In this document: positions 9,348 through 64,000 of the stretch, piece after piece
Layout: each line of letters begins with the position of its first letter
How positions within the stretch are numbered: position 1 is the first letter of the stretch
Assembly (NCBI GenBank): GCA_050176815.1
Contig: JBFXHR010000012.1
Coordinates: 15 to 64,014 of the forward strand
Reading direction: 5' to 3'
DNA length: 64,000 nt
DNA from: Kiritimatiellia bacterium
Lineage (GTDB): Bacteria > Verrucomicrobiota > Kiritimatiellia > CAIQIC01 > Lenti-01
Program-made: the position numbers and the translations under genes
The notes under the pieces: generated by a model
Told to the model about the DNA's origin: nothing
The model's input: only the letters and a program-made list of their open reading frames with translations
Database searches by the model: none

Positions 9348-12347
9348 TCAGGGCACCACGGTCCACCGGCCGGGCCAGAGGGCGGCTCGGCGCTGGATGG
9401 CCGGCGCATCGCTGCGCCGGATTGGGACGCGGAATCCGCTTTGGGACTGGTAGAGGCCAACGGCGAGATCCAGCGGTCCGGGAGGCGTTCCGGCGGGAAT
9501 CGAGAGGCGGCGCGTCTCCGCGAGGCCTTCGCGGGCGACGGGCCGGAGAGAAGCGTCGCCCCACAGGAGAAACAAGCCCCGGTAGTCGTCCTGCGCCACG
9601 AGCGCGCCGCGGGAATCGCGCACGTGGATGAACGTGATTTCCTGCCCGGGCTCGAAGCCGGCGGCGGCGGACCAATGCAGGCGCACCTCGATTTCGCCTC
9701 CGGCCTTCGCGTCCACGGGCCCGGTCTCGACGCCTTCGAGCCAAATGCCGTTGGCGAATTCCGTCGCGCAGGGCTTTTCCGGAAGATCGGCGGACTCGCG
9801 GCGGACCTGGACGGCCCGCGCGCCGCCGAGCCGCGCGACGGTCTCTTCCGGCAGCGCGGCCAGCGCGGCGGGACGCCAGCGAACGACCTCCTCCAGCAGC
9901 GCTGGTTGCGTTTTGCCGGTCTCTTTTCCCGCGCAAAGGCGGCGAATCGCCTCGGCCGCGCGCGCGGAGGAGTTGCCCAGCAGCAGGGTTTCGCCCGTCC
10001 ATCGGACAGCGGGCGGCAGCCCCAGGCCATCGGCAGTCCATCCGCCGGCGTTCACGGAGAAGACGCACCACTTGTTCACCGTGTCGAACTGGAATTCCGC
10101 GCCGTGGGCCCCGAGGGCGTGGCGCATGGCGTCCTCGTAGCGGGGTTCCACGATGAACACGCCAGGCCGCTCCGCCGCCACGCTCCCGTCGCGCGCGACG
10201 TTTCCCGGAGGGAAAACCCGGGCGGCCAGGCCCGCGAGCCGCTCTTCGGGAACCCATCGGCCGGCGAGCAACTGGTTGGAAATCCAGCGCGGCGCATAGA
10301 CGGCGGTCTCCGGCGCGCGTTTGAGCAGCCATTTGCCCAGCGCCTCCACCGCCGCGCTCGTATGGCGCCGAAGCAGGCCCTCGGAGGAATCCAGCGCGAC
10401 GACTTCCGCGAGACGCCAGCCCAGGCTGCGTCCACTCGCCTGCGCGTCGAGCAAGGTGATGCGCAGCGCCTGCGCGCCGGCCGCTTCCAGGCGGAATTCC
10501 GGGCGCGCCAGGCCGGACGAAAAATAGAGGCGCGGGCCGGAGCCTTCCAGCGGATTGACCGGTTCGTCCGCGAGCAGCGTTCGCCATTCGCCGCCGATCT
10601 GGACTTCCACGCGGATGCGGAACGAAAAGGCGAACGGATCCTCCACGATCGAGTGGGCGAACGCGAGCTGGATGGAATGGACGTCCTGCGGCTGGACGAA
10701 GGTCCATTCCAACGGGACGGCCGGCGCGGCGCCGGGCGACCAGAACGTGTCGAGGTTGCGATCCATGAGCGCGGATCTCCAGTCCCGGCCCGCGCCGTCG
10801 CGAAGGCTTTCGGTGTTTTCGGCCGGAATCTCCCGCAGCGAGACCGGAGGCCGGCGCACGTTGTACAGCAGGCTCCGGCGGCCGACCGCGATGGATTCCC
10901 ATTGCGCGCCCTGCTGGACCAGGAAGGAACCCACGCCGTTGAAGTCGGACGAATACGCGGGGGCATCCGACAGCTCCGCGCGGCGCAGGATGGGTTCGTA
11001 GAATTTTTGCCGGCCGTTGGACACGGCGAAGCGCTCGTCCAGCGCGAAGTTCAGCGGGAACAGCTGGATGGGCGCCAGCAGGGCGTCCGCCCCGGCGCGG
11101 GCGAGCGCCTCGCCGATGTCGCGATAGCCCGCCAGCGTCGCCGCGGATTTATGCCCCGACGCCGCCAGGGACGAGAGCGCCAACGCCCCTTGCCCCGCCG
11201 CGAGGGCGACGAGCAGGCCCCACGCCGCCGCCCGAAACGCCCGGGATCCGGACGCCGCGCACGCCACCCCCGCCAGCACCGCCAGGGCCGGCACCAGCGG
11301 AACCCAGTAGCGCGCCGTGTGGGTCCGGGTGAAGCCGGACGTCGCGAAGACCAGCGCGAACAGCGCGCAAAAAAGGATTGCGCCGCTCCGCGCATAGTTT
11401 TCCGGAAGCGAAGCCCGGCGCCGGGAAGCCATCGCCCTAAAAACCCCGGCCCCGGCCAGCCCCAGCACGACCGCGGCCAAGACCAGCGGCAACCCCGATC
11501 CCGCCGCGTTCCGCCCCTGCTGCAGCAACAAAAAGCGGTTCCACGAGTTGGACAGCGCTTCGCGCAGCGGCGCGTGCCCGCCGATCTGCGACATCGCCAG
11601 CGACGCCCACCCGTGCCGCGCGTTCCACGCCAGCCACGGCGCGAAGCCCAGGGCGAAACCCGCCAGGCCGGACGCGATCCCCGCCGGATGCCGCCAGAAC
11701 TTCCCGCGCATGCCGTGCAGCAGCAGCAGCGCGGCCGCGCCCAGCGCCGGCGCCACGATCATGTTCGACCACGCCCCGATACCCGCCAGCAGGCCCAGCG
11801 CGAAATAGCGCCCCCCCCCGACCGCATGCCCCCCGCGCAGACGGGCCGCCATCCGCGCCGCCGCGAAAATCGCCAGCGCATCCACGAACAGCGCGACCAT
11901 GTAGCCGCCCCGCGGGGCCGCCTGGAACTGGAAATAGACCAGCGGGCCAAACAGCCCCGCCAGCACGGCCGCCAGCCCACCCCGCGGGCCGGCGGCGTCG
12001 CGCGCCCAGCGCCACAACAAGAACAGCGCCGCCGACGCGAACAGCGCCGGACCCAGATTCACCGCGAATCCGTTCGATCCCAGCAGGCCCACCATCAGCG
12101 CGCTGGCCATCGGCTCGAGGCTGCCCATATAGGCCTGGCCGTAGAAAAAGACCGGGAACTCCTTCAGCGCGGCCATGTGGCGGGCCATCAGCGCGACCAC
12201 CGTCGAATCCGGATCCCCGATGCCCCGCGCCGCCCACGCCCCCGCGACCCGGACGGCGACGCCCAGCAGCAGCAGCGCCGCCGCCAGCCGATCGGCCCAA
12301 TCCCCGCGCTTCGTCGTTTCCGTCGCGTCGCTCATCGGGTCGCTCAA
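9348..12347 (-). CDS. PMT_2/GT39-like GT-C membrane glycosyltransferase fused to a C-terminal discoidin (F5/8 type C)-like domain
   Basis: N-terminal HMAALKEFPVFFYGQAYMGSLEP... and multiple TM helices (PMT_2-like). C-terminal segment ALMDRNLDTFWSPGAAPAVPLEWTFVQPQDVHSIQLAFA resembles the discoidin NxDxxTxW motif. 999 aa. Confidence 0.65.
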   Translation of the reverse strand: MSDPMSDATETTKRGDWADRLAAALLLLGVAVRVAGAWAARGIGDPDSTVVALMARHMAALKEFPVFFYGQAYMGSLEPMASALMVGLLGSNGFAVNLGPALFASAALFLLWRWARDAAGPRGGLAAVLAGLFGPLVYFQFQAAPRGGYMVALFVDALAIFAAARMAARLRGGHAVGGGRYFALGLLAGIGAWSNMIVAPALGAAALLLLHGMRGKFWRHPAGIASGLAGFALGFAPWLAWNARHGWASLAMSQIGGHAPLREALSNSWNRFLLLQQGRNAAGSGLPLVLAAVVLGLAGAGVFRAMASRRRASLPENYARSGAILFCALFALVFATSGFTRTHTARYWVPLVPALAVLAGVACAASGSRAFRAAAWGLLVALAAGQGALALSSLAASGHKSAATLAGYRDIGEALARAGADALLAPIQLFPLNFALDERFAVSNGRQKFYEPILRRAELSDAPAYSSDFNGVGSFLVQQGAQWESIAVGRRSLLYNVRRPPVSLREIPAENTESLRDGAGRDWRSALMDRNLDTFWSPGAAPAVPLEWTFVQPQDVHSIQLAFAHSIVEDPFAFSFRIRVEVQIGGEWRTLLADEPVNPLEGSGPRLYFSSGLARPEFRLEAAGAQALRITLLDAQASGRSLGWRLAEVVALDSSEGLLRRHTSAAVEALGKWLLKRAPETAVYAPRWISNQLLAGRWVPEERLAGLAARVFPPGNVARDGSVAAERPGVFIVEPRYEDAMRHALGAHGAEFQFDTVNKWCVFSVNAGGWTADGLGLPPAVRWTGETLLLGNSSARAAEAIRRLCAGKETGKTQPALLEEVVRWRPAALAALPEETVARLGGARAVQVRRESADLPEKPCATEFANGIWLEGVETGPVDAKAGGEIEVRLHWSAAAGFEPGQEITFIHVRDSRGALVAQDDYRGLFLLWGDASLRPVAREGLAETRRLSIPAGTPPGPLDLAVGLYQSQSGFRVPIRRSDAPAIQRRAALWPGRWTVVP

Positions 12348-24246: not shown

Positions 24247-24330
24247 CGGCGGTTCAGGTAGGGACGGCTCTCCGAGCCGTCCGTTTTCTTGCATATTCGG
24301 ACATCTCTTAGAGATGTCCCTACCACATCG
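24247..24330. repeat. REP-like compound palindromic element (GGTAGGGACG...hairpin...hairpin...CGTCCCTACC), copy 1, at the 3' end of the RAYT gene
   Basis: ggtaggGACGGCTCtccGAGCCGTCcgttttcttgcatattcGGACATCTCttaGAGATGTCCctacc. Its GTAGGGAC arm overlaps the RAYT stop codon. Confidence 0.6.
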
Positions 24331-24839: not shown

Positions 24840-24915
24840 CCGGAAGGTAGGGACGCTTCCACGAAGCGTCCGCGCTCTTCCCCAAACGGACGCCTCGCAG
24901 AGGCGTCCCTACCAT
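24840..24915. repeat. REP-like compound palindromic element, copy 2, just upstream of the RAYT start
   Basis: ggtaggGACGCTTCcacGAAGCGTCcgcgctcttccccaaacGGACGCCTCgcaGAGGCGTCCctacc. Same architecture as copy 1. Confidence 0.6.
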
Positions 24916-27051: not shown

Positions 27052-28878
27052 CTATTCGCGATAGGGCGTTCCGGATCGATACAGATCCAGACGCTTCCGG
27101 ATCGCTTTCGCCTCTACCGGATCCGTTGTCAACGCCAATGCTTGCTCGCCGGCTTCGACGGCCCCCGCGAAATCCCCGGCGGCCGCGCGGGCCACGCCCA
27201 AGGTGTCCAGCATCGGCGCGAATTTTCCGTGGGTCCAAGCCACCGCGCGCTCCGCGTGTTCGGTTGCGCGCGCGCCCACTTCCGGCGTCGCCTCCGGATC
27301 CGTGGCCAGCAACCAGGCCAGATTGTTCAAGGCCCGCGCGGACAGCAAATCTTCTGCAACCGCCGCTTGGTAATGCCGGACGGCCTCTTTCTTGCGCCCC
27401 GCCGCGACCAGGGCGTTGGCGAGATTGACGCGCGCCTTGTTGCGCTTGGGCTGGATTTCGAGACTGCGCTGCAGATGGATTTCGGCTTCCGGCCAGCGGC
27501 CCTGCTCCATGTACCACATCCCCAGATTCCCGTGGGCAAGCGCATTGCGCTCCACAACGGAAATCACCTGCTGGAACAGGGTCTCCGTCGTCCGCCACAC
27601 GGCCGTCTGCCCGCGCGAAACCACCGCCAGCGCAATCGCCAGTACCGTCGCGGATGCCAGGAGGTAGGGACGCCTCTCCGAGGCGTCCGTTGACCTGCTT
27701 TGCCGGACGCCTTGGCAAGGCGTCCCTACCTGCCGGTCCCGGATTTTCCCCGCCCCCCAAACCGCCGCCACGATCAAACCAATATGCGGCAAATAGGTGT
27801 AGCGATCCGCCCAGGCCTGGCTCCCCACCTGCACCAGCCCGATCATCGGCACCAGCGCCCCTAAAAACCAGAACCAACCCACGGTCAACCAAGGCCGGCG
27901 GCGGAACTGGCCGGCCGCCCCCGCCGTCAAAACGGCCACCAACGCCAGCGAAACAGCCATCCGAAGCAGGGAATGGCCTCCGATCGGATGGGGATAGAAG
28001 GCGGCCAGGCCCGTTGGCCAAACCAGCATCCGCACGTACTCCGAATAGGCCACGCCCGCGTGGACGATACGCGTGGCCAACGGCAACACGTCCAATGCGC
28101 CAACGGCTCCGCCTTTCCCCTGCGCCCAAACCGTCGCGGCGCACGACCCGGCCGCCAGCGCGAACAACGGCCATTTTTCCGCCGCCAGTTTCCGCCACGG
28201 TTCCGCCGGCCAACGGCCCAGCGGCCAGACGTCCAGCAGCAGCAGCAGAAACGGAAGCGTCACCCAGGTCGGCTTGGCCATCAGGCTCAAGGCAAAAAAC
28301 ACCGCCACCGGGCCAATTCGAAACGTTGTAGGCCGGGTGCCCCCACCCGGCGCATTCCGTCCATGCATCCCCACCGCCAGCAGTCCGAACAGCATCGCCA
28401 ACACGTCCTTGCGCTCCGAAATCCAGACGACCGATTCCACGCGCAGCGGATGCACCGCCCACAGCGCCGCCGCCATCCACGACAACCCCGCGCGTCGCGT
28501 CATCCGGCGCAATGCCCAAAACAGCAAGATCGCGTTGGCCGCGTGCAGCAGCAGGTTCGTGAGATGGTGCCCGGCCGGATTCAAGCCGTACAGTTCCACG
28601 TCCGCCATGTGCGACAGCCAGGCTAGCGGGTGCCAGTTGGAGGCATGCCCCGTCGTCAAGGCCCAGCGAACGGCGGCGATCGTCAGCCCCTGCGCCACCT
28701 GCGGATTCTCGGTCACGTACACGTCGTCGTCGAACCGCACGAATCCGCATTCCAGCGCCCCGCCGAACGCGAAGAACACCAGCGCCGCCAGGCCCGCGGC
28801 GGCGACGGCCCCCCGCGCCCGCCGGGCCCTTTCCGGGAACGCCGTTTCCCCCAGCATCTCCTCGTTTCTTGCCGCCAT
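27052..28878 (-). CDS. TPR-repeat / GT-C (TMTC/PMT-like) membrane glycosyltransferase, paralog 3, carrying an in-frame REP insertion
   Basis: FVRFDDDVYVTENPQV...HLTNLLLHAANAILL...WAVHPLRVESVVWISERKDVLAMLF. C-terminal TPR repeats. Contains the extra loop segment ...VGTPCQGVRQSRSTDASERRPY... encoded by a REP element. Confidence 0.7.
   Translation of the reverse strand: MAARNEEMLGETAFPERARRARGAVAAAGLAALVFFAFGGALECGFVRFDDDVYVTENPQVAQGLTIAAVRWALTTGHASNWHPLAWLSHMADVELYGLNPAGHHLTNLLLHAANAILLFWALRRMTRRAGLSWMAAALWAVHPLRVESVVWISERKDVLAMLFGLLAVGMHGRNAPGGGTRPTTFRIGPVAVFFALSLMAKPTWVTLPFLLLLLDVWPLGRWPAEPWRKLAAEKWPLFALAAGSCAATVWAQGKGGAVGALDVLPLATRIVHAGVAYSEYVRMLVWPTGLAAFYPHPIGGHSLLRMAVSLALVAVLTAGAAGQFRRRPWLTVGWFWFLGALVPMIGLVQVGSQAWADRYTYLPHIGLIVAAVWGAGKIRDRQVGTPCQGVRQSRSTDASERRPYLLASATVLAIALAVVSRGQTAVWRTTETLFQQVISVVERNALAHGNLGMWYMEQGRWPEAEIHLQRSLEIQPKRNKARVNLANALVAAGRKKEAVRHYQAAVAEDLLSARALNNLAWLLATDPEATPEVGARATEHAERAVAWTHGKFAPMLDTLGVARAAAGDFAGAVEAGEQALALTTDPVEAKAIRKRLDLYRSGTPYRE
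27660..27728. repeat. REP-like compound palindromic element, copy 3, located inside CDS 27052..28878 and translated in-frame
   Basis: ggtaggGACGCCTCtccGAGGCGTCcgttgacctgctttgccGGACGCCTTGgcaAGGCGTCCctacc. The reverse complement translates in the gene frame as QVGTPCQGVRQSRSTDASERRPYLL. Confidence 0.6.
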
Positions 28879-61414: not shown

Positions 61415-61491
61415 CGGGGCGTGGCTCAGCCTGGTAGAGCGCTTGGTTCGGGACCAAGAAGTCGCTGGTTCAAATCCAGTCGCCCCGACCA
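61415..61491 (+). tRNA. tRNA-Pro (anticodon CGG), CCA encoded
   Basis: CGGGGCG acceptor, GCTCAGCCTGGTAGAGC D-arm, anticodon arm CTTGG-TTCGGGA-CCAAG (anticodon CGG), T-arm GCTGG-TTCAAAT-CCAGT. Closely resembles E. coli proK. Confidence 0.85.
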
Positions 61492-61702
61492 TTTTTCCGA
61501 ACGCGGAATTATGGCCCACATTTTCCACGGGCCGATGAATTCCACTCGCAGGCGCGGCGGCAGGTTTCCTCTATTGCTCACCCGATGCGGCCACCACTTT
61601 TCCACGGCGGACAGATCGGGGGCGGCGCTCCTGCCTTTGGCTGGGCAAGCGGTTTCGGGCGCGGCGCGACGGATGCGGGCGGCGCGATTTGTGCGGCTGG
61701 CG

Positions 61703-61848
61703 TCCAACGAGTTGCAAAACGGCGCACCCCTACGGATTTCCGAGGTCGGCGGCGGGGTCGGGAGGTCGGCGCGAGCGGCAAGGCCGCCGCGCCGAGCGGC
61801 AGGGTCGGCTTTCTGGCCCGCTGGTTCCAAAGGGGGGGGCATCTCTGC
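61703..61848. repeat. Left copy of an inverted repeat of at least 140 bp (partner at 63858..64000)
   Basis: The reverse complement of 61703-61848 matches 63858-64000 with about 1 mismatch. The peptide MPPPLEPAGQKADPAARRGGLAARADLPTPPPTSEIRRGAPF is encoded by both copies on opposite strands. Confidence 0.7.
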
Positions 61849-62154
61849 GCGCTTCGCTTGCCGCCGTCGGTAGCGTCAAAGCCGCCCCACTTCCCGCCCT
61901 TGGCGTTCGTTCCTCACACGCGGGCGGGAGCGGTGCTGACCTTGCCGCCTTCCCTGATCTACTCATAAAAATGGGCGGAATGATGCAGCATAAAGGCATC
62001 TTTGAATAAGCCCCAAATGATTCCACCCATTTTTACCGGGGGCGCGACGATTCCAGCGCATCTGCGTCGTTGCGAAAGGCTCGCAGTAGTGATCTACAGC
62101 ATCGCTTTCGACGCCTCGCATCTACGCCGGACTTATCGCGTGCCTAGATCAGGG

Positions 62155-62412
62155 CTAAAAGCCCGCTTCCCTGATTACATCGCTGGCGCGACACCCCAGG
62201 GCTTCCCCGAATCTGGCGACCATTTCCACCGTTACATTGTATTCCCCGCGCTCGACGAGGCCGACATAGTTGCGGTGACAGTCGATTTTCTCGGCCAGCT
62301 CTTCTTGTGAAAACCCGAGGGCTTCCCGCTTCTTGCGCAGGGCCATGCCTAGCTTGAGCCGATGGGCTTTGTTTGCCTTGGTGGTTTTCACACTTGCAAG
62401 AACAGCATACAT
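62155..62412 (-). CDS. XRE-family helix-turn-helix transcriptional regulator (Cro/CI-like)
   Basis: LKLGMALRKKREALGFSQEELAEKIDCHRNYVGLVERGEYNVTVEMVARFGEALG, a canonical HTH_XRE. Divergent from the recombinase gene with a 48-bp AT-richer spacer. Confidence 0.7.
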   Translation of the reverse strand: MYAVLASVKTTKANKAHRLKLGMALRKKREALGFSQEELAEKIDCHRNYVGLVERGEYNVTVEMVARFGEALGCRASDVIREAGF

Positions 62413-62460
62413 GTGCGCAAATATCTACATAGTATTCATGTGCTCACAAGAGGGGTGAAA

Positions 62461-64000
62461 ATGAAAGTGTTTCTTTACGCGCGGAAAAGCACGGACGACG
62501 AAGAGCGGCAGATCCTTTCGATTGATGCGCAGCGAAACGAACTGCGCGAATACGCCGCCAAGCAGGGGCTTGAAATCGTCTTTGAATTCGTGGAATCCAT
62601 GACCGCCAAGGAGCCGGGGCGACCGATCTTCAACGATATGCTTTCGAGGGTGGAGAAGGGCGAAGCGGAGGCACTTTTGGCGTGGCATCCCGACCGCCTC
62701 GCGCGCAATAGCGTGGACGGCGGGAAAATCATCTGGCTGGTGGACACGGGCAAACTGACGGCTCTAAAATTTCCCGCGTTTTGGTTTGAGAATACGCCGC
62801 AGGGAAAATTTGTTCTCAATATGGCGTTCGGTCAGTCGAAATATTATGTGGATGCGCTCTCGGAGAATGTGCGGCGCGGCATGCGGGAAAAGATACGGCG
62901 GGGCGTCTATCCGCACAAGCCACCCCTGGGCTATGTGAACGAGCCGCGCCTGCGTACCATCGAAATCCACCAGCAGAAAGCCCCGCTGGTCCGGCGAATG
63001 TTCGAGACCTACGCGACGGGACGGCAAAACTTCGACCAGATGACCGACCTTGCCGCGCAGTGGGGGCTTTTAAGCCATCAGGAAAGGCCGCTGGCCCGCA
63101 GCATGATTCCGATTATTCTCTCGGATCGGTTTTACATCGGGTTTTTCAAGTGGCGGGGCGACGAATACGAAGGGAAGCACGAGCCCTTGGTTTCCGTGGA
63201 TCTGTTCGAGCGCGTGCAACGGGTTTTGGGGGATCGGGGCCGGGGCCGCTACAAAACCAAGGATGTCCCGCGCGAATTGGCCTTCATGGGCTTTGTGCGT
63301 TGCGACGAATGCGGCGCCAGCGTGACGGCGGAGCGGCAGAAGGGACTGCATTACTACCGCTGCACCAAGAAACTCGGTGCCTGCAGGCTTACGGGGTATA
63401 TCCGCGAGGAATATCTTGCGGGACTGATGCGCGAGAAAATCCGCACGGTCGCCATTTCCGACGAGTGGGCCGAGTTGATGCTGGCTCAAATCGAAGTTTG
63501 GCAGCGCGAGGGTGCCGACCGCGTTGCAGTGGCGGGGCAACGCCACCGCAACCGCCTTGCAGAGATTGAAACGAAGGTCAAACGCCTGCTGGATGTATTC
63601 CTGGAGGGGACCATCACGCGGGAGGATTATGCCGCGCGAAAGGCCGAATTTTTCACCGAGAAAGCCGTTTTGCGCGAAAAAATCGCTCAAATCGAGTCCA
63701 CGGGAGGGTTCTGGCTCGAACCTCTCGAAAATTTCGTGAAAACCGCGAATTTGGCCGAAAAAACGGCATTTTCGGACGATTTTTCAAAAATTCGCGCGTT
63801 TTTTGAAAAAATCGGCTCGAACCTCTTCCTCTACCAGCCGAAAACGGACGAAAACGAAGCCGAAAACCGGATGCCCCCCCCTTTGGAACCAGCGGGCCAG
63901 AAAGCCGACCCTGCCGCTCGGCGCGGCGGCCTTGCCGCACGCGCCGACCTCCCGACCCCGCCGCCGACCTCGGAAATCCGTAGGGGTGCGCCGTTTTGCA
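62461..64000 (+). CDS. Large serine recombinase (resolvase/invertase N-domain, recombinase domain, zinc-ribbon). 3' end is beyond the window.
   Basis: MKVFLYARKSTDDEERQILSIDAQRNEL... (catalytic Ser in YARKST), ...LLAWHPDRLARN (conserved R), recombinase-domain and Cys cluster CDECGASVTAERQKGLHYYRCTKKLGAC. The open frame continues to position 64000. It is not in the ORF track because no stop falls in the window. Confidence 0.85.
   Translation, partial: MKVFLYARKSTDDEERQILSIDAQRNELREYAAKQGLEIVFEFVESMTAKEPGRPIFNDMLSRVEKGEAEALLAWHPDRLARNSVDGGKIIWLVDTGKLTALKFPAFWFENTPQGKFVLNMAFGQSKYYVDALSENVRRGMREKIRRGVYPHKPPLGYVNEPRLRTIEIHQQKAPLVRRMFETYATGRQNFDQMTDLAAQWGLLSHQERPLARSMIPIILSDRFYIGFFKWRGDEYEGKHEPLVSVDLFERVQRVLGDRGRGRYKTKDVPRELAFMGFVRCDECGASVTAERQKGLHYYRCTKKLGACRLTGYIREEYLAGLMREKIRTVAISDEWAELMLAQIEVWQREGADRVAVAGQRHRNRLAEIETKVKRLLDVFLEGTITREDYAARKAEFFTEKAVLREKIAQIESTGGFWLEPLENFVKTANLAEKTAFSDDFSKIRAFFEKIGSNLFLYQPKTDENEAENRMPPPLEPAGQKADPAARRGGLAARADLPTPPPTSEIRRGAPFC
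63858..64000. repeat. Right copy of the inverted repeat of at least 140 bp (partner 61703..61848). Lies inside the recombinase 3' coding region and reaches the window edge.
   Basis: See the left copy. The repeat may extend beyond the window. Confidence 0.7.

What the first reader, a model, noticed from the sequence alone, without database searches (positions are those of the whole stretch)
61492..64000. tRNA-Pro-adjacent element: XRE repressor plus large serine recombinase bracketed by near-identical inverted repeats of at least 140 bp, the right one inside the recombinase ORF
Immediately 3' of tRNA-Pro(CGG), a divergent HTH-XRE/large-serine-recombinase pair is flanked by near-perfect inverted repeats (61703-61848 versus 63858-64000). 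The right copy reaches the window end and may extend further. The right repeat encodes the recombinase's Pro/Arg-rich C-terminal tail. The left repeat encodes the same peptide on the opposite strand and reads on toward the tRNA. Integration at a tRNA with a large serine recombinase is typical of prophages and ICEs, but long inverted (not direct) flanking repeats are not. This suggests an invertible segment, a nested or rearranged integration, or an unusual transposon-like element with long terminal inverted repeats. GC drops locally (61850-62460).
Basis: seen in the sequence. Interest (0 to 1): 0.7.

Follow-up and report, generated by a model that had tools for sequence, protein, structure and literature searches.

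The report
tRNA-targeting recombinase island with internal inverted attachment site
The inverted repeat is real: it is a duplicated arm of the attachment site of a widespread mobile island that a large serine recombinase inserts at the 3' ends of tRNA genes, and I found no published description of islands that keep a second, inverted copy of that site inside themselves.

Summary
The inverted repeat (IR) is confirmed at 61713-61843 versus 63870-64000: 131 nt with one mismatch, cut by the window end. In relatives the arms run about 353-356 bp and end in the last 6 nt (CGACCA) of tRNA-Pro.

The arm is the 3' end of the large serine recombinase (LSR) gene, so the attachment site lies inside the recombinase ORF.

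About 65 of 80 related loci from many phyla show the same IR around the recombinase. At least 17 also show a second IR around the cargo. The layout is attL-cargo-[inverted intact attP]-recombinase-attR/tRNA.

The non-tRNA half of attP mimics the tRNA T-arm (GTTCGAA), 5 bp further from the core. This is the canonical LSR attP/attB offset.

An empty site in near-identical genomes shows that one complete double-IR unit (9,063 bp) inserts precisely.

Both orientations of the recombinase module occur. The window has the minority one, reading away from the tRNA, so the cargo lies beyond base 64000.

What flips the module is unresolved. For long identical arms the orientation cannot be trusted from short-read assemblies.

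The closest known system is the Dehalococcoides ssrA islands (DsiB). I found no description of the internal inverted attP.

The parts
61415..61491 (+). tRNA-Pro(CGG). This is the host half of the attR junction. Its T-loop GGTTCAAATCC lies 17 nt from the core, the spacing of an attB-type half-site.
   Evidence: ARAGORN and Rfam tRNA at 66.5 bits. The spacing was compared across 37 site pairs.
61486..61491 (+). Core CGACCA, the last 6 nt of the tRNA including CCA. It is shared by all junction types and is the inferred crossover region.
   Evidence: The IR arms of L001 and of L013-L016 end here. The empty site of the L013 family shows a 6-bp overlap, TGGTCG.
61486..61843 (-). Recombinase-less copy of the P arm (antisense of the recombinase tail), abutting the tRNA. 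Only 61713-61843 can be verified as an IR inside the window.
   Evidence: It matches the L001 XRE-proximal arm (10370-10722) from the core (61486) to the inner arm boundary (overall match 61486-61951 at 97.6%). ORF 61426-61842 on the - strand repeats the tail peptide.
61768..61793 (.). Conserved GC-rich hairpin inside the arm, GGCGCG(A/T)GCGGCAAGGCCGCCGCGCC. The mirror copy is at 63920-63945.
   Evidence: It is invariant in 7 of the 8 arms aligned, from relatives with 73-91% identical recombinases, and variant in L102. The window's single arm mismatch is its bulged base. Its function is unknown. In CPR (Patescibacteria) relatives, arms carry a hairpin plus T-run in the tRNA-sense direction.
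61844..62154 (.). Unique spacer of lower GC content between the arm and the XRE gene. No feature was identified.
   Evidence: 61844-61951 lies within the 97.6% match to L001 (61486-61951); 61952-62157 gave no match to any relative. No Rfam hit and no promoter or terminator consensus.
62155..62412 (-). XRE-family helix-turn-helix (HTH) regulator of 85 aa, divergent from the recombinase gene.
   Evidence: Pfam HTH_3 E=8e-13 and HTH_31 E=6e-11. The exact protein occurs in 45 blocks of public assemblies, always next to the recombinase.
62413..62460 (.). 48-bp divergent intergenic region, presumed to hold the promoters and operator of the XRE and recombinase genes.
   Evidence: Inferred from gene arrangement only. 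No consensus promoter was found.
62461..64000 (+). Large serine recombinase gene, truncated by the window end. 513 aa are visible; relatives are 594-628 aa. The folded protein ends at about aa 460 (about 63840).
   Evidence: Pfam Resolvase 3-149, Recombinase 172-257 and Zn_ribbon 275-320. S10 and C281/C284/C301/C308 are invariant. The AlphaFold2 model shows a coiled coil at 334-414. The best fold matches are the SPbeta, phiC31, Bxb1 and LI integrases.
63870..64000 (+). Right IR arm: the P arm in the sense orientation, forming the recombinase 'tail'. It is expected to continue about 220 bp to the core and then into the P' half of an intact attP.
   Evidence: The continuation is inferred from L116 (the recombinase matches window 62450-63961 at 88% DNA identity; its protein P0004 is 90% identical), where the order is recombinase, P, TGGTCG, P'. 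Tail pLDDT is 33-42.

Best explanation
The window holds the tRNA-proximal end of an integrative genomic island that a large serine recombinase (LSR) moves into the 3' end of tRNA genes.

**Attachment site.** The island's attP (P-core-P') sits inside the 3' end of the recombinase gene. The ORF runs through the P arm, so the 'Pro/Arg-rich tail' is simply a translated attachment-site arm. P' mimics a tRNA T-arm plus acceptor end, with its GTTCGAA motif 5 bp further from the core than in a real tRNA. The zinc-ribbon domain can therefore read the universal T-loop as the attB half-site. Strand exchange occurs within the last ~6 nt of the tRNA, which regenerates the tRNA.

**Internal second site.** Members of this family also keep a second, complete attP in inverted orientation between the cargo and the recombinase module. 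The excised circle would carry two inverted attP junctions, the same topology as the yeast 2-micron circle or a herpes simplex genome.

**Orientation.** The recombinase module can therefore lie in either orientation. The window shows the minority state: the recombinase-less arm is next to tRNA-Pro and the recombinase gene reads away from the tRNA, towards attP and a cargo that lies beyond base 64000.

**Shown:** the IR; the family-wide architecture; the 5-bp offset; the precise empty site; both orientations; concerted evolution of the arms.

**Inferred:** strand exchange in the core, and the circular intermediate.

**Unresolved:** what flips the module. My ranking is:
- integration through either of the two indistinguishable attP sites, about 0.4;
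- host homologous recombination between the arms, about 0.3;
- LSR-catalysed attP x attR inversion, about 0.2.

Also unresolved is what the internal attP is selected for.
For: - **LSR identity:**
- **IR in the window:**
- **Arms in relatives:** 353-356 bp, ending at the tRNA's last 6 nt.
- **Tails:** homologue tails split after the residues KWS (tgg tcg = reverse complement of cgaCCA) into antisense-tRNA tails and 'native' tails.
- **Family scale:** 592 relatives in GTDB representative genomes. About 65 of the 80 loci fetched have the IR around the recombinase. In 41 of them the arm ends inside a convergent tRNA, covering 14 different amino-acid specificities.
- **Second IR:** it abuts the first at the core in 17 or more loci.
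- **5-bp offset:** the shift scan peaks at +5 (0.385 against a background of about 0.25). GTTCG lies 23-19 nt from the core in P' and 18-14 nt in the tRNA. This matches the DBD2 offset reported in PMC11722253.
- **Empty site:** L098-L100 equal L013 1-2698 joined to 11762 onward at 99.9-100% identity with a 6-bp overlap, so a 9,063-bp double-IR unit is absent.
- **Orientation variants:** L001/L002 versus L006 at the same locus. State II with diverged arms, which assemblers can resolve, is seen in L011, L033 and L044.
- **Tail is not a protein domain:** substitutions fall 10:7:10 over codon positions, with nonsynonymous far exceeding synonymous, and pLDDT is below 45.
- **Tandem arrays:** L037, L115, L026 and L073 show that an occupied site can be used as a target.
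Against: - The window ends inside the right arm, so the core, P', the cargo and attL of this particular element were never seen.
- Arms longer than sequencing reads leave the orientation of the middle segment undetermined in short-read assemblies. The window's orientation, and several 'native-tail' contigs, could be assembler choices.
- The reliable assemblies, a complete CPR (Patescibacteria) genome (L042) and a 1.8-Mb contig (L024), both show the other orientation.
- Orientation is about 41:5 among the GTDB loci, not the 1:1 expected from random use of two identical attP sites.
- The one informative case, L006, has a hybrid arm. The crossover falls in a 67-nt identical stretch, not at the core. 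That fits homologous recombination or a chimeric contig.
- Canonical LSRs do not recombine attP with attR or attL.
- No recombination directionality factor was identified.
- No function for the internal attP was demonstrated.
Confidence: 0.72

Rival explanations
1. The inverted duplication is an assembly artefact, such as a contig-end fold-back or chimera. Nothing biological is duplicated.
For: The right arm touches the window end. Many related contigs start or stop inside an arm, with overlaps of 55, 99 or 141 nt that look like k-mer lengths.
Against: The same IR, at the same place relative to the recombinase and the tRNA, occurs in about 65 of 80 loci from different assemblers and phyla. These include a complete genome (L042) and a 1.8-Mb contig (L024). 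Arms with 8% divergence (L001) cannot be collapsed k-mers. The window's own arms differ at one base. Contig breaks at the arms are what a real IR produces.
Confidence: 0.03
2. The repeat is real, but the orientation shown in the window (recombinase reading away from the tRNA) is an arbitrary or wrong assembler choice. The element actually sits in the common orientation, with the recombinase reading into tRNA-Pro.
For: The arms are at least 131 nt at 99% identity here and about 353 bp in relatives, which is longer than typical reads. The de Bruijn graph is consistent with both orientations. Reliable assemblies show the common orientation. The same recombinase (P0118) is joined to its cargo in opposite orientations in different assemblies.
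Against: The away-from-tRNA orientation exists where the arms have diverged and are resolvable: L044 at 82%, L033 at 90%, L011 at 83%. It also appears in short-arm CPR contigs (L059, L060, L090). The arm next to tRNA-Pro in the window is of the XRE-side type along its full length.
Confidence: 0.2
3. The 2.5-kb unit arm-XRE-recombinase-arm is itself an autonomous IS-like transposon with long terminal inverted repeats that inserts next to tRNA genes.
For: The layout looks like an IS: a recombinase gene whose 3' end lies in the right terminal repeat, with identical arms.
Against: The sequence outside the recombinase-less arm is not random host DNA. It is a conserved P' half-site followed by cargo. 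The unit missing from the empty sites is the whole attL-to-attR island, cargo included. Sites in inverted orientation cannot be excised by conservative recombination. I never saw the unit alone at a non-tRNA site in the 80 loci.
Confidence: 0.04
4. The arms are a neutral by-product. An ancestral inverted duplication of attP is kept identical by gene conversion, flips occasionally by RecA-dependent recombination, and has no selected function.
For: Arms evolve in concert and their lengths vary from 55 to 405 bp. L006 has a hybrid arm with its crossover inside the arm. The tail shows no coding constraint. Herpes simplex virus (HSV) tolerates loss of its internal repeats (own knowledge).
Against: The internal site is retained, with an intact GTTCGAA half-site, in recombinases only 43-50% identical across at least seven phyla. 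A neutral duplication should have been lost in many lineages. Orientation is strongly biased, about 9:1, which argues for selection on orientation.
Confidence: 0.2

Closest known systems
Dehalococcoides ssrA-specific genomic islands with the serine integrase DsiB (McMurdie et al. 2011, PMC3146451)
   Same: An LSR sits at the edge of the island. Its gene always overlaps the attachment site, and its stop codon lies beyond the island, read antisense into the t(m)RNA gene. Cargo is variable. Tandem arrays form at the same target. The authors also proposed that the C-terminus differs between the integrated and circular forms.
   Different: The target there is tmRNA, with a ~20-bp direct repeat and a crossover in the T-loop. 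Here the core is ~6 bp at the CCA end of ordinary tRNAs. DsiB islands have a six-gene integration module (DsiA, RecF-like, ParB, Mom and others) that is absent here. The paper does not mention inverted repeats or an internal inverted attP (the word 'inverted' occurs 0 times). Sequence relatedness to DsiB was not tested.
Canonical phage large serine integrases (phiC31, Bxb1, LI/A118, SPbeta)
   Same: The domain architecture and fold are the same. Sites are short and have a common core. The DBD2 motif lies about 5 bp nearer the centre in attB than in attP.
   Different: Sequence identity is only 13-18%. The target is a tRNA 3' end recognised through its T-loop. attP lies inside the integrase ORF. 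A second inverted attP is retained in the integrated element. Occupied sites appear to be usable as targets, giving tandem arrays. No recombination directionality factor was found.
Yeast 2-micron circle and herpes simplex (class E) genome architecture
   Same: Two inverted copies of one junction divide the molecule into two unique segments. Each segment is bracketed by its own inverted repeats, and this gives orientation isomers. In the 2-micron circle the recombinase is encoded in one of the segments. This comparison rests on my own knowledge, not on a tool result.
   Different: The enzymes are unrelated (FLP is a tyrosine recombinase; HSV uses replication-coupled recombination). Those are replicons, whereas no replication function was seen here. 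The resemblance is in topology only.
Hin/Gin/Cin/Pin invertible segments and shufflons
   Same: A serine recombinase gene is associated with a DNA segment found in two orientations between inverted repeats. In Hin the recombinase gene lies inside the segment.
   Different: Those systems use small serine invertases with 26-34-bp crossover sites, an enhancer and Fis, and they switch a defined host or phage gene. Here the enzyme is an LSR, the arms are 55-405 bp, the system belongs to an integrative element, and no switched gene has been identified.

Membership tests
Large serine recombinase (serine integrase) | N-terminal resolvase-type catalytic domain with a serine nucleophile | tested here: met
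   PF00239 E=1.2e-22 over residues 3-149. S10 in the YARKS motif is invariant in 28 sequences.
Large serine recombinase (serine integrase) | Recombinase domain, plus a zinc-ribbon domain with four Cys and an inserted coiled coil | tested here: met
   PF07508 and PF13408. C281, C284, C301 and C308 are invariant. The AlphaFold2 model has helices 334-382 and 387-414. The best Foldseek hits are the SPbeta, phiC31, Bxb1 and LI integrases at E=1e-16 to 1e-10.
Large serine recombinase (serine integrase) | attP and attB half-sites carry the same outer motif, offset by about 5 bp | tested here: met
   Tested in relatives, not in the window. There were 37 unique site pairs, the best shift was +5, and GTTCG lies at 23-19 nt versus 18-14 nt from the core. 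The rule is stated in PMC11722253.
Large serine recombinase (serine integrase) | Conservative, precise insertion at a short common core | tested here: met
   For the L013 relative, occupied and empty sites differ by exactly 9,063 bp, with the 6-bp core TGGTCG present at both ends. Not testable for the window's own element.
Large serine recombinase (serine integrase) | Strict attP x attB pairing, with reversal only in the presence of a directionality factor | tested here: inconclusive
   The tandem arrays (L037, L115, L026, L073) imply that attP can pair with an occupied site. No directionality factor was recognised. Biochemistry is needed.
DsiB-type t(m)RNA islands | The integrase gene overlaps the attachment site and reads antisense into the target RNA gene | tested here: met
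   Met in relatives in the common orientation (L001, L002, L013). In the window it is the recombinase-less arm ORF, 61426-61842, that does this.
DsiB-type t(m)RNA islands | Target is ssrA with a ~20-bp direct repeat, and a six-gene integration module is present | tested here: not met
   Targets are tRNAs of 14 amino-acid specificities with a 4-9-bp core. The module contains only the recombinase plus an XRE- or AbrB-like gene.
Hin/Gin-type DNA invertase switch | Small serine invertase with a C-terminal HTH, and short (~26 bp) inverted crossover sites | tested here: not met
   The enzyme is an LSR of about 600 aa. The arms are 131 bp or more. In the one informative variant the crossover lies inside the arm.
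Insertion sequence with terminal inverted repeats | The repeats mark the ends of the mobile unit, and empty sites lack exactly that unit | tested here: not met
   The empty site lacks the whole attL-to-attR island. The flank outside the recombinase-less arm is a conserved P' sequence.
Prophage | Phage structural or replication genes are present, and relatives occur in viral collections | tested here: not met
   Cargo consists of restriction-modification systems, helicases, RHS toxins, dynamin-like GTPases, kinases and enolase/CrcB. Only 5 relatives were found in IMG/VR.

The most novel reading that the evidence does not exclude
The internal inverted attP is a built-in substrate that lets the LSR act without a directionality factor. 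By pairing attP with attR, or with attL, the enzyme would flip its own gene and the cargo back and forth. Alternatively, an attP-bound dimer would unlock attL and attR for excision, acting as a DNA-encoded directionality factor. Either way this would be a self-inverting integrase module. Recognition of the universal T-loop, with only the ~6-nt core retuned, would explain how one family has colonised 14 tRNA amino-acid specificities in at least seven phyla. A more remote variant: a single-stranded circle of the element would fold into a dumbbell with one perfect double-stranded attP stem, by analogy with CTXphi and integron attC sites.
Probability: 0.25. Interest if true: 0.88.

Novelty: new variant of a known kind. 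Interest (0 to 1): 0.72.

Why it matters
- **Canonical rules.** Large serine integrases are prized as genome-engineering tools because of their simple, strictly directional attP x attB logic. A large natural family that keeps an intact attP inside the integrated element, and appears to use occupied sites, does not fit that logic. It could reveal a new way of controlling directionality or recombinase expression.
- **tRNA targeting.** The family reads the universal tRNA T-loop as its attB half-site. This could explain how serine integrases, which I do not know to use tRNA genes commonly, can target them.
- **Tool potential.** It suggests enzymes whose target exists in every genome and might be retuned by changing about 6 bp.
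- **Ecology.** These islands carry defence and metabolic cargo in poorly studied groups (CPR/Patescibacteria, the PVC superphylum including Verrucomicrobiota/Kiritimatiellae, Omnitrophota). How genes move between genomes is, to my knowledge, little understood in these groups.
- **Practical.** The double IR explains why MAG contigs so often break at these loci, and why recombinase ORFs get odd antisense-tRNA tails.

Tried and rejected
- **Which flip route?** I tried to tell apart a flip of the recombinase module alone from re-integration through the other attP. I fetched long contigs for 'native-tail' recombinases P0013, P0103, P0118, P0012, P0018, P0054 and P0004. The contigs either end inside arms or are nested arrays, so this stayed undecided.
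- **Cargo orientation.** It differs between L102/L104 and L103/L105, but the arm exceeds read length, so I did not count this as evidence.
- **Cointegrate model.** I considered a cargo circle and a recombinase circle, each with a palindromic junction, fusing into one. I rejected it because core and arms are inverted together, and cores such as CCACCA (L066) contain no palindromic dinucleotide.
- **Tail peptide as a functional domain or directionality factor.** Rejected for lack of codon bias, predicted disorder, and arms of only 25-45 codons in CPR relatives.
- **RNA structure in the arm.** RNAalifold found one invariant hairpin but no covariation (covariation term +0.6).
- **Rfam, and promoter/terminator scans of 58-64 kb.** Only the two tRNAs were found, with no enrichment of sites.
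- **P' sequence elsewhere in the window.** None found.
- **IMG/VR scan.** Five relatives, none informative.
- **Curated families.** NCBIfam gives only distant CcrB/XisF hits, far below cut-off. A PDB sequence search gives only TnpX and SPbeta, weakly.
- **Literature.** Six searches found DsiB but nothing on an internal inverted attP. The library is incomplete, so absence of a description is not proof.
- **Source contig.** I could not find it, nor the window's genome, in the collections.
Full report
**Observation**

ARAGORN and Rfam place tRNA-Pro(CGG) at 61415-61491 on the + strand. An inverted repeat (IR) joins 61713-61843 to 63870-64000: 131 nt with one mismatch. There is no match inward of 61843/63870, and the right arm is cut by the window end.

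Between the arms lie three features:
- a 311-bp spacer;
- an 85-aa XRE-type gene at 62155-62412 on the - strand (HTH_3, E=8e-13);
- 48 bp further on, a divergent large serine recombinase (LSR) gene starting at 62461, with Resolvase, Recombinase and Zn_ribbon_recom domains. 513 aa are visible.

The right arm encodes recombinase residues from about 470 onward. The left arm encodes the same peptide on the other strand, in an ORF that stops inside the tRNA. The arms have GC 0.72-0.735, the unique middle 0.49-0.62 and the host 0.65-0.70.

**What the arm is**

The exact XRE protein occurs on many metagenome contigs, always next to the recombinase gene.
- In L001 and L002 the recombinase is 608 aa. 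Its 3' end runs antisense through a 353-bp arm into a full tRNA-Pro.
- The second arm lies beyond the XRE gene. In L001 the two arms are 92% identical, and they end exactly at the last 6 nt of the tRNA, CGACCA.
- Beyond the recombinase-less arm the same reading frame continues as KWS-CFLDRARTYFEA-stop.

An alignment of 28 homologues (48-91% identity) shows that all tails run to KWS, where tgg tcg is the reverse complement of cgaCCA. After that point they split into two classes:
- antisense-tRNA read-through, such as WSGRRDLNPR...ALPGCATPR, derived from different tRNAs;
- a 'native' end, W..L...RT(Y/W/F)F(E/D).

Among 120 homologues there are roughly 55 of the first class and 30 of the second. 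The junction point is thus the tRNA's CCA end, inside the recombinase ORF. The arm is the P arm of an attachment site.

The tail is not a protein domain:
- substitutions between arms fall evenly over codon positions (10:7:10 and 23:21:21), and nonsynonymous changes far outnumber synonymous ones;
- AlphaFold2 gives a normal LSR fold up to about residue 460, including a zinc ribbon with a long coiled coil at 334-414, and pLDDT of 33-42 for residues 462-513;
- Foldseek's best matches are the SPbeta, phiC31, Bxb1 and LI integrases, at E=1e-16 to 1e-10.

**The architecture is family-wide**

A scan of one genome per GTDB species found 592 relatives, and I analysed the 80 best (43-76% identity). They come from Verrucomicrobiota, Kiritimatiellae, many CPR/Patescibacteria, Gammaproteobacteria, Omnitrophota, Planctomycetia, Nitrospirales, Ignavibacteriota and Elusimicrobiota.
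- In about 65 loci an IR of 55-160 bp, mostly 98-100% identical, has one arm at the recombinase 3' end and the other 50-300 bp upstream of the recombinase start.
- In 41 loci the 3' arm ends 4-8 nt inside a convergent tRNA gene. The tRNAs cover 14 amino-acid specificities: Pro, Ala, Ser, Asn, Gln, Leu, Tyr, Gly, Arg, Lys, Val, Glu, Asp and Thr.
- In at least 17 loci with enough context a second IR (91-405 bp) brackets a cargo segment of 0.9-7.4 kb. Its inner arm abuts the first IR at the core.

The layout is: host flank | core-P'> cargo <P'-core-<P (regulator) recombinase> P>-core | tRNA. In other words, attL, then an intact attP in inverted orientation, then attR.

Cargo is diverse. It includes type I restriction-modification systems, large helicases/ATPases, RHS toxins, dynamin-like GTPases, a protein kinase, enolase plus CrcB, and small membrane proteins. 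Only five relatives occur in IMG/VR. These are genomic islands, not phages.

**Evidence that these are LSR attachment sites**

Next to the core, P' carries GTTCGAA, the T-loop sequence of tRNAs. Over 37 unique pairs of internal site and tRNA junction, the two flanks match best when slid by +5 nt (identity 0.385 against about 0.25). GTTCG lies 23-19 nt from the core in P' and 18-14 nt in the tRNA. A DBD2 (zinc-ribbon) motif 5 bp nearer the centre in attB than in attP is the published hallmark of serine integrase sites (PMC11722253). In the window the tRNA-Pro T-loop sits at the attB spacing (17 nt). In L001 and L116, P' sits at the attP spacing (22 nt).

**Evidence that the double-IR unit is one mobile element**

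I predicted the unoccupied site of the L013 family as host flank + TGGTCG + tRNA-Pro(TGG) and searched for it in metagenome contigs. Four contigs carry it. Three of them equal L013 1-2698 joined directly to 11762 onward, at 99.9-100% identity with a 6-bp overlap. So 9,063 bp are precisely absent, comprising P', the cargo, the inverted attP, an AbrB-like gene, the recombinase and P. Joining the ends of that unit gives a second attP, so the circular form would carry two attP sites in inverted orientation. To my knowledge this is the topology of the 2-micron circle and of class E herpesvirus genomes.

**Orientation states**
- L006 carries the same tRNA-Thr/tRNA-Pro locus as L001/L002 (97% identity) but with the recombinase module inverted, as in the window.
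- Among the GTDB loci, 41 have the recombinase reading into the tRNA and five have the tRNA next to the upstream arm (L033, L044, L059, L060, L090).
- L011, L033 and L044 have diverged arms (83%, 90% and 82%), so their orientation is not an assembly ambiguity.

There is a caveat. An IR longer than the reads leaves the orientation of its middle undetermined in a de Bruijn graph, and many contigs break inside arms. The window's own orientation therefore cannot be verified. The same applies to the opposite cargo orientations seen for the identical recombinase P0118.

**What flips the module**

- *Re-integration through the other attP.* This needs no new chemistry, because the two attP sites of the circle are indistinguishable.
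- *Homologous recombination.* Two observations favour it. The arms evolve in concert. L006 has a hybrid arm whose outer ~250 nt match L001's tRNA-side arm and whose inner ~35 nt match its XRE-side arm, with the crossover in a 67-nt identical stretch. That contig could also be a chimera.
- *LSR-catalysed inversion.* Tandem arrays make this plausible. L037 and L115 read rec1-[attP]-cargo-[inverted attP]-rec2. In L026 and L073 the recombinase's P arm is joined to a heterologous P'. Both patterns imply that attP can recombine with an occupied site. In addition, the window's tRNA-side arm is of the XRE-side type right up to the core.

None of the three routes explains the roughly 9:1 orientation bias without selection. 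A plausible source of selection is that a recombinase gene convergent with the strongly transcribed tRNA is kept silent. This is inference.

**Other features of the arm**

A GC-rich hairpin, GGCGCG(A/T)GCGGCAAGGCCGCCGCGCC, is invariant in seven of the eight PVC-clade arms aligned and variant in L102. It lies at 61768-61793 and 63920-63945 in the window. CPR arms often carry a hairpin plus T-run in the tRNA-sense direction (L093, L050, L036). The arm may therefore supply a new terminator for the tRNA and, being inverted on both sides, shield the recombinase module from outside transcription. This is inferred and was not tested.

**Comparison with known systems**

The nearest described system is the set of ssrA-specific islands of Dehalococcoides. 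[quoted passage not shown] Those islands differ in several ways: they target tmRNA, have a ~20-bp repeat and a six-gene integration module, and no inverted site is described.

Curated families do not capture this recombinase. NCBIfam gives only sub-threshold CcrB/XisF hits. Six literature searches found no description of an internal inverted attP or of T-loop mimicry by an LSR. The library is incomplete.

**Verdict**

The finding is a real feature. It is one visible corner of a large and, as far as I could find, undescribed variant of LSR integrative islands.
- Firm: the identity of the parts.
- Not demonstrated: the purpose of the internal attP and the catalyst of inversion.
- Unverified: this window's own orientation, and the remainder of its element beyond base 64000.

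Noticed in passing
L001:1814-7836 (absent from L002): A separate ~6-kb island sits at the 3' end of tRNA-Thr(TGT). It carries a tyrosine-integrase-like gene, an HTH_17 excisionase-like gene and an AAA_25 gene. It is missing from the otherwise 99.5% identical L002, with a 49-bp overlap at the junction. So two different integrative elements sit back to back at the tRNA-Thr/tRNA-Pro pair.
   Followed up: partly
L001:10723-10932 and L116:1860-2114: Just past the P' half-site and the 'native' stop codon there is a run of G-rich (C-rich on the other strand) repeats of the type GCGCAAGGGGGG, spaced about 20-30 nt apart. They are conserved at 77-80% between the two elements. Their function is unknown; they could be protein-binding repeats.
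   Followed up: no
window:61099-61179, 24250-24283, 24887-24913, 27662-27689: Short (27-36 nt) intergenic repeats at 89-96% identity, one of them inverted, occur upstream of tRNA-Pro and at three other places in the window. They may be a REP-like element of the host.
   Followed up: no
window:1-2000: The first 2 kb of the window have GC 0.53-0.58 against about 0.65-0.70 elsewhere. This may be another foreign segment.
   Followed up: no
L109:258-1772: A reverse-transcriptase gene (RVT_1, 504 aa; possibly a group II intron) lies inside the recombinase module, between the upstream arm and the XRE gene.
   Followed up: no
L011:7589-8878: An IS110-family transposase lies next to a decayed upstream arm (87 bp, 83% identical) in an element that has no tRNA within 10 kb. 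This looks like a degraded element, fixed in one orientation.
   Followed up: no
P0006 versus P0019 and the window recombinase (alignment A1): P0006 has a recombinase body close to the window's clade (84% identity) but a tail identical to that of the L013 clade (73% body identity). Either recombinase modules are exchanged between elements through the shared arms, or the contig is chimeric.
   Followed up: no
L115:3958-6411 (P0054) and the homologues of 817-894 aa: The 'long' homologues carry two sets of Recombinase and Zn-ribbon domains. They appear to be read-through fusions across junctions in nested or tandem arrays rather than genuine large proteins.
   Followed up: partly
L042:11470-11560 (complete Patescibacteria genome CP174360.1): The recombinase 3' arm ends at a sequence with a normal tRNA T-arm and acceptor end (GGTTCGAATCCTGTCCGCGGAGCC), but ARAGORN calls no tRNA there. 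It may be an unusual or interrupted tRNA gene.
   Followed up: no
L041, L047, L063, L075, L078, L089 (cargo end next to the internal site): In CPR elements a 65-95-aa XRE-like gene always sits at the cargo end nearest the internal attP, divergent from the recombinase gene. The attP therefore lies in their shared regulatory region. In the window's clade the XRE gene lies inside the recombinase module instead.
   Followed up: partly
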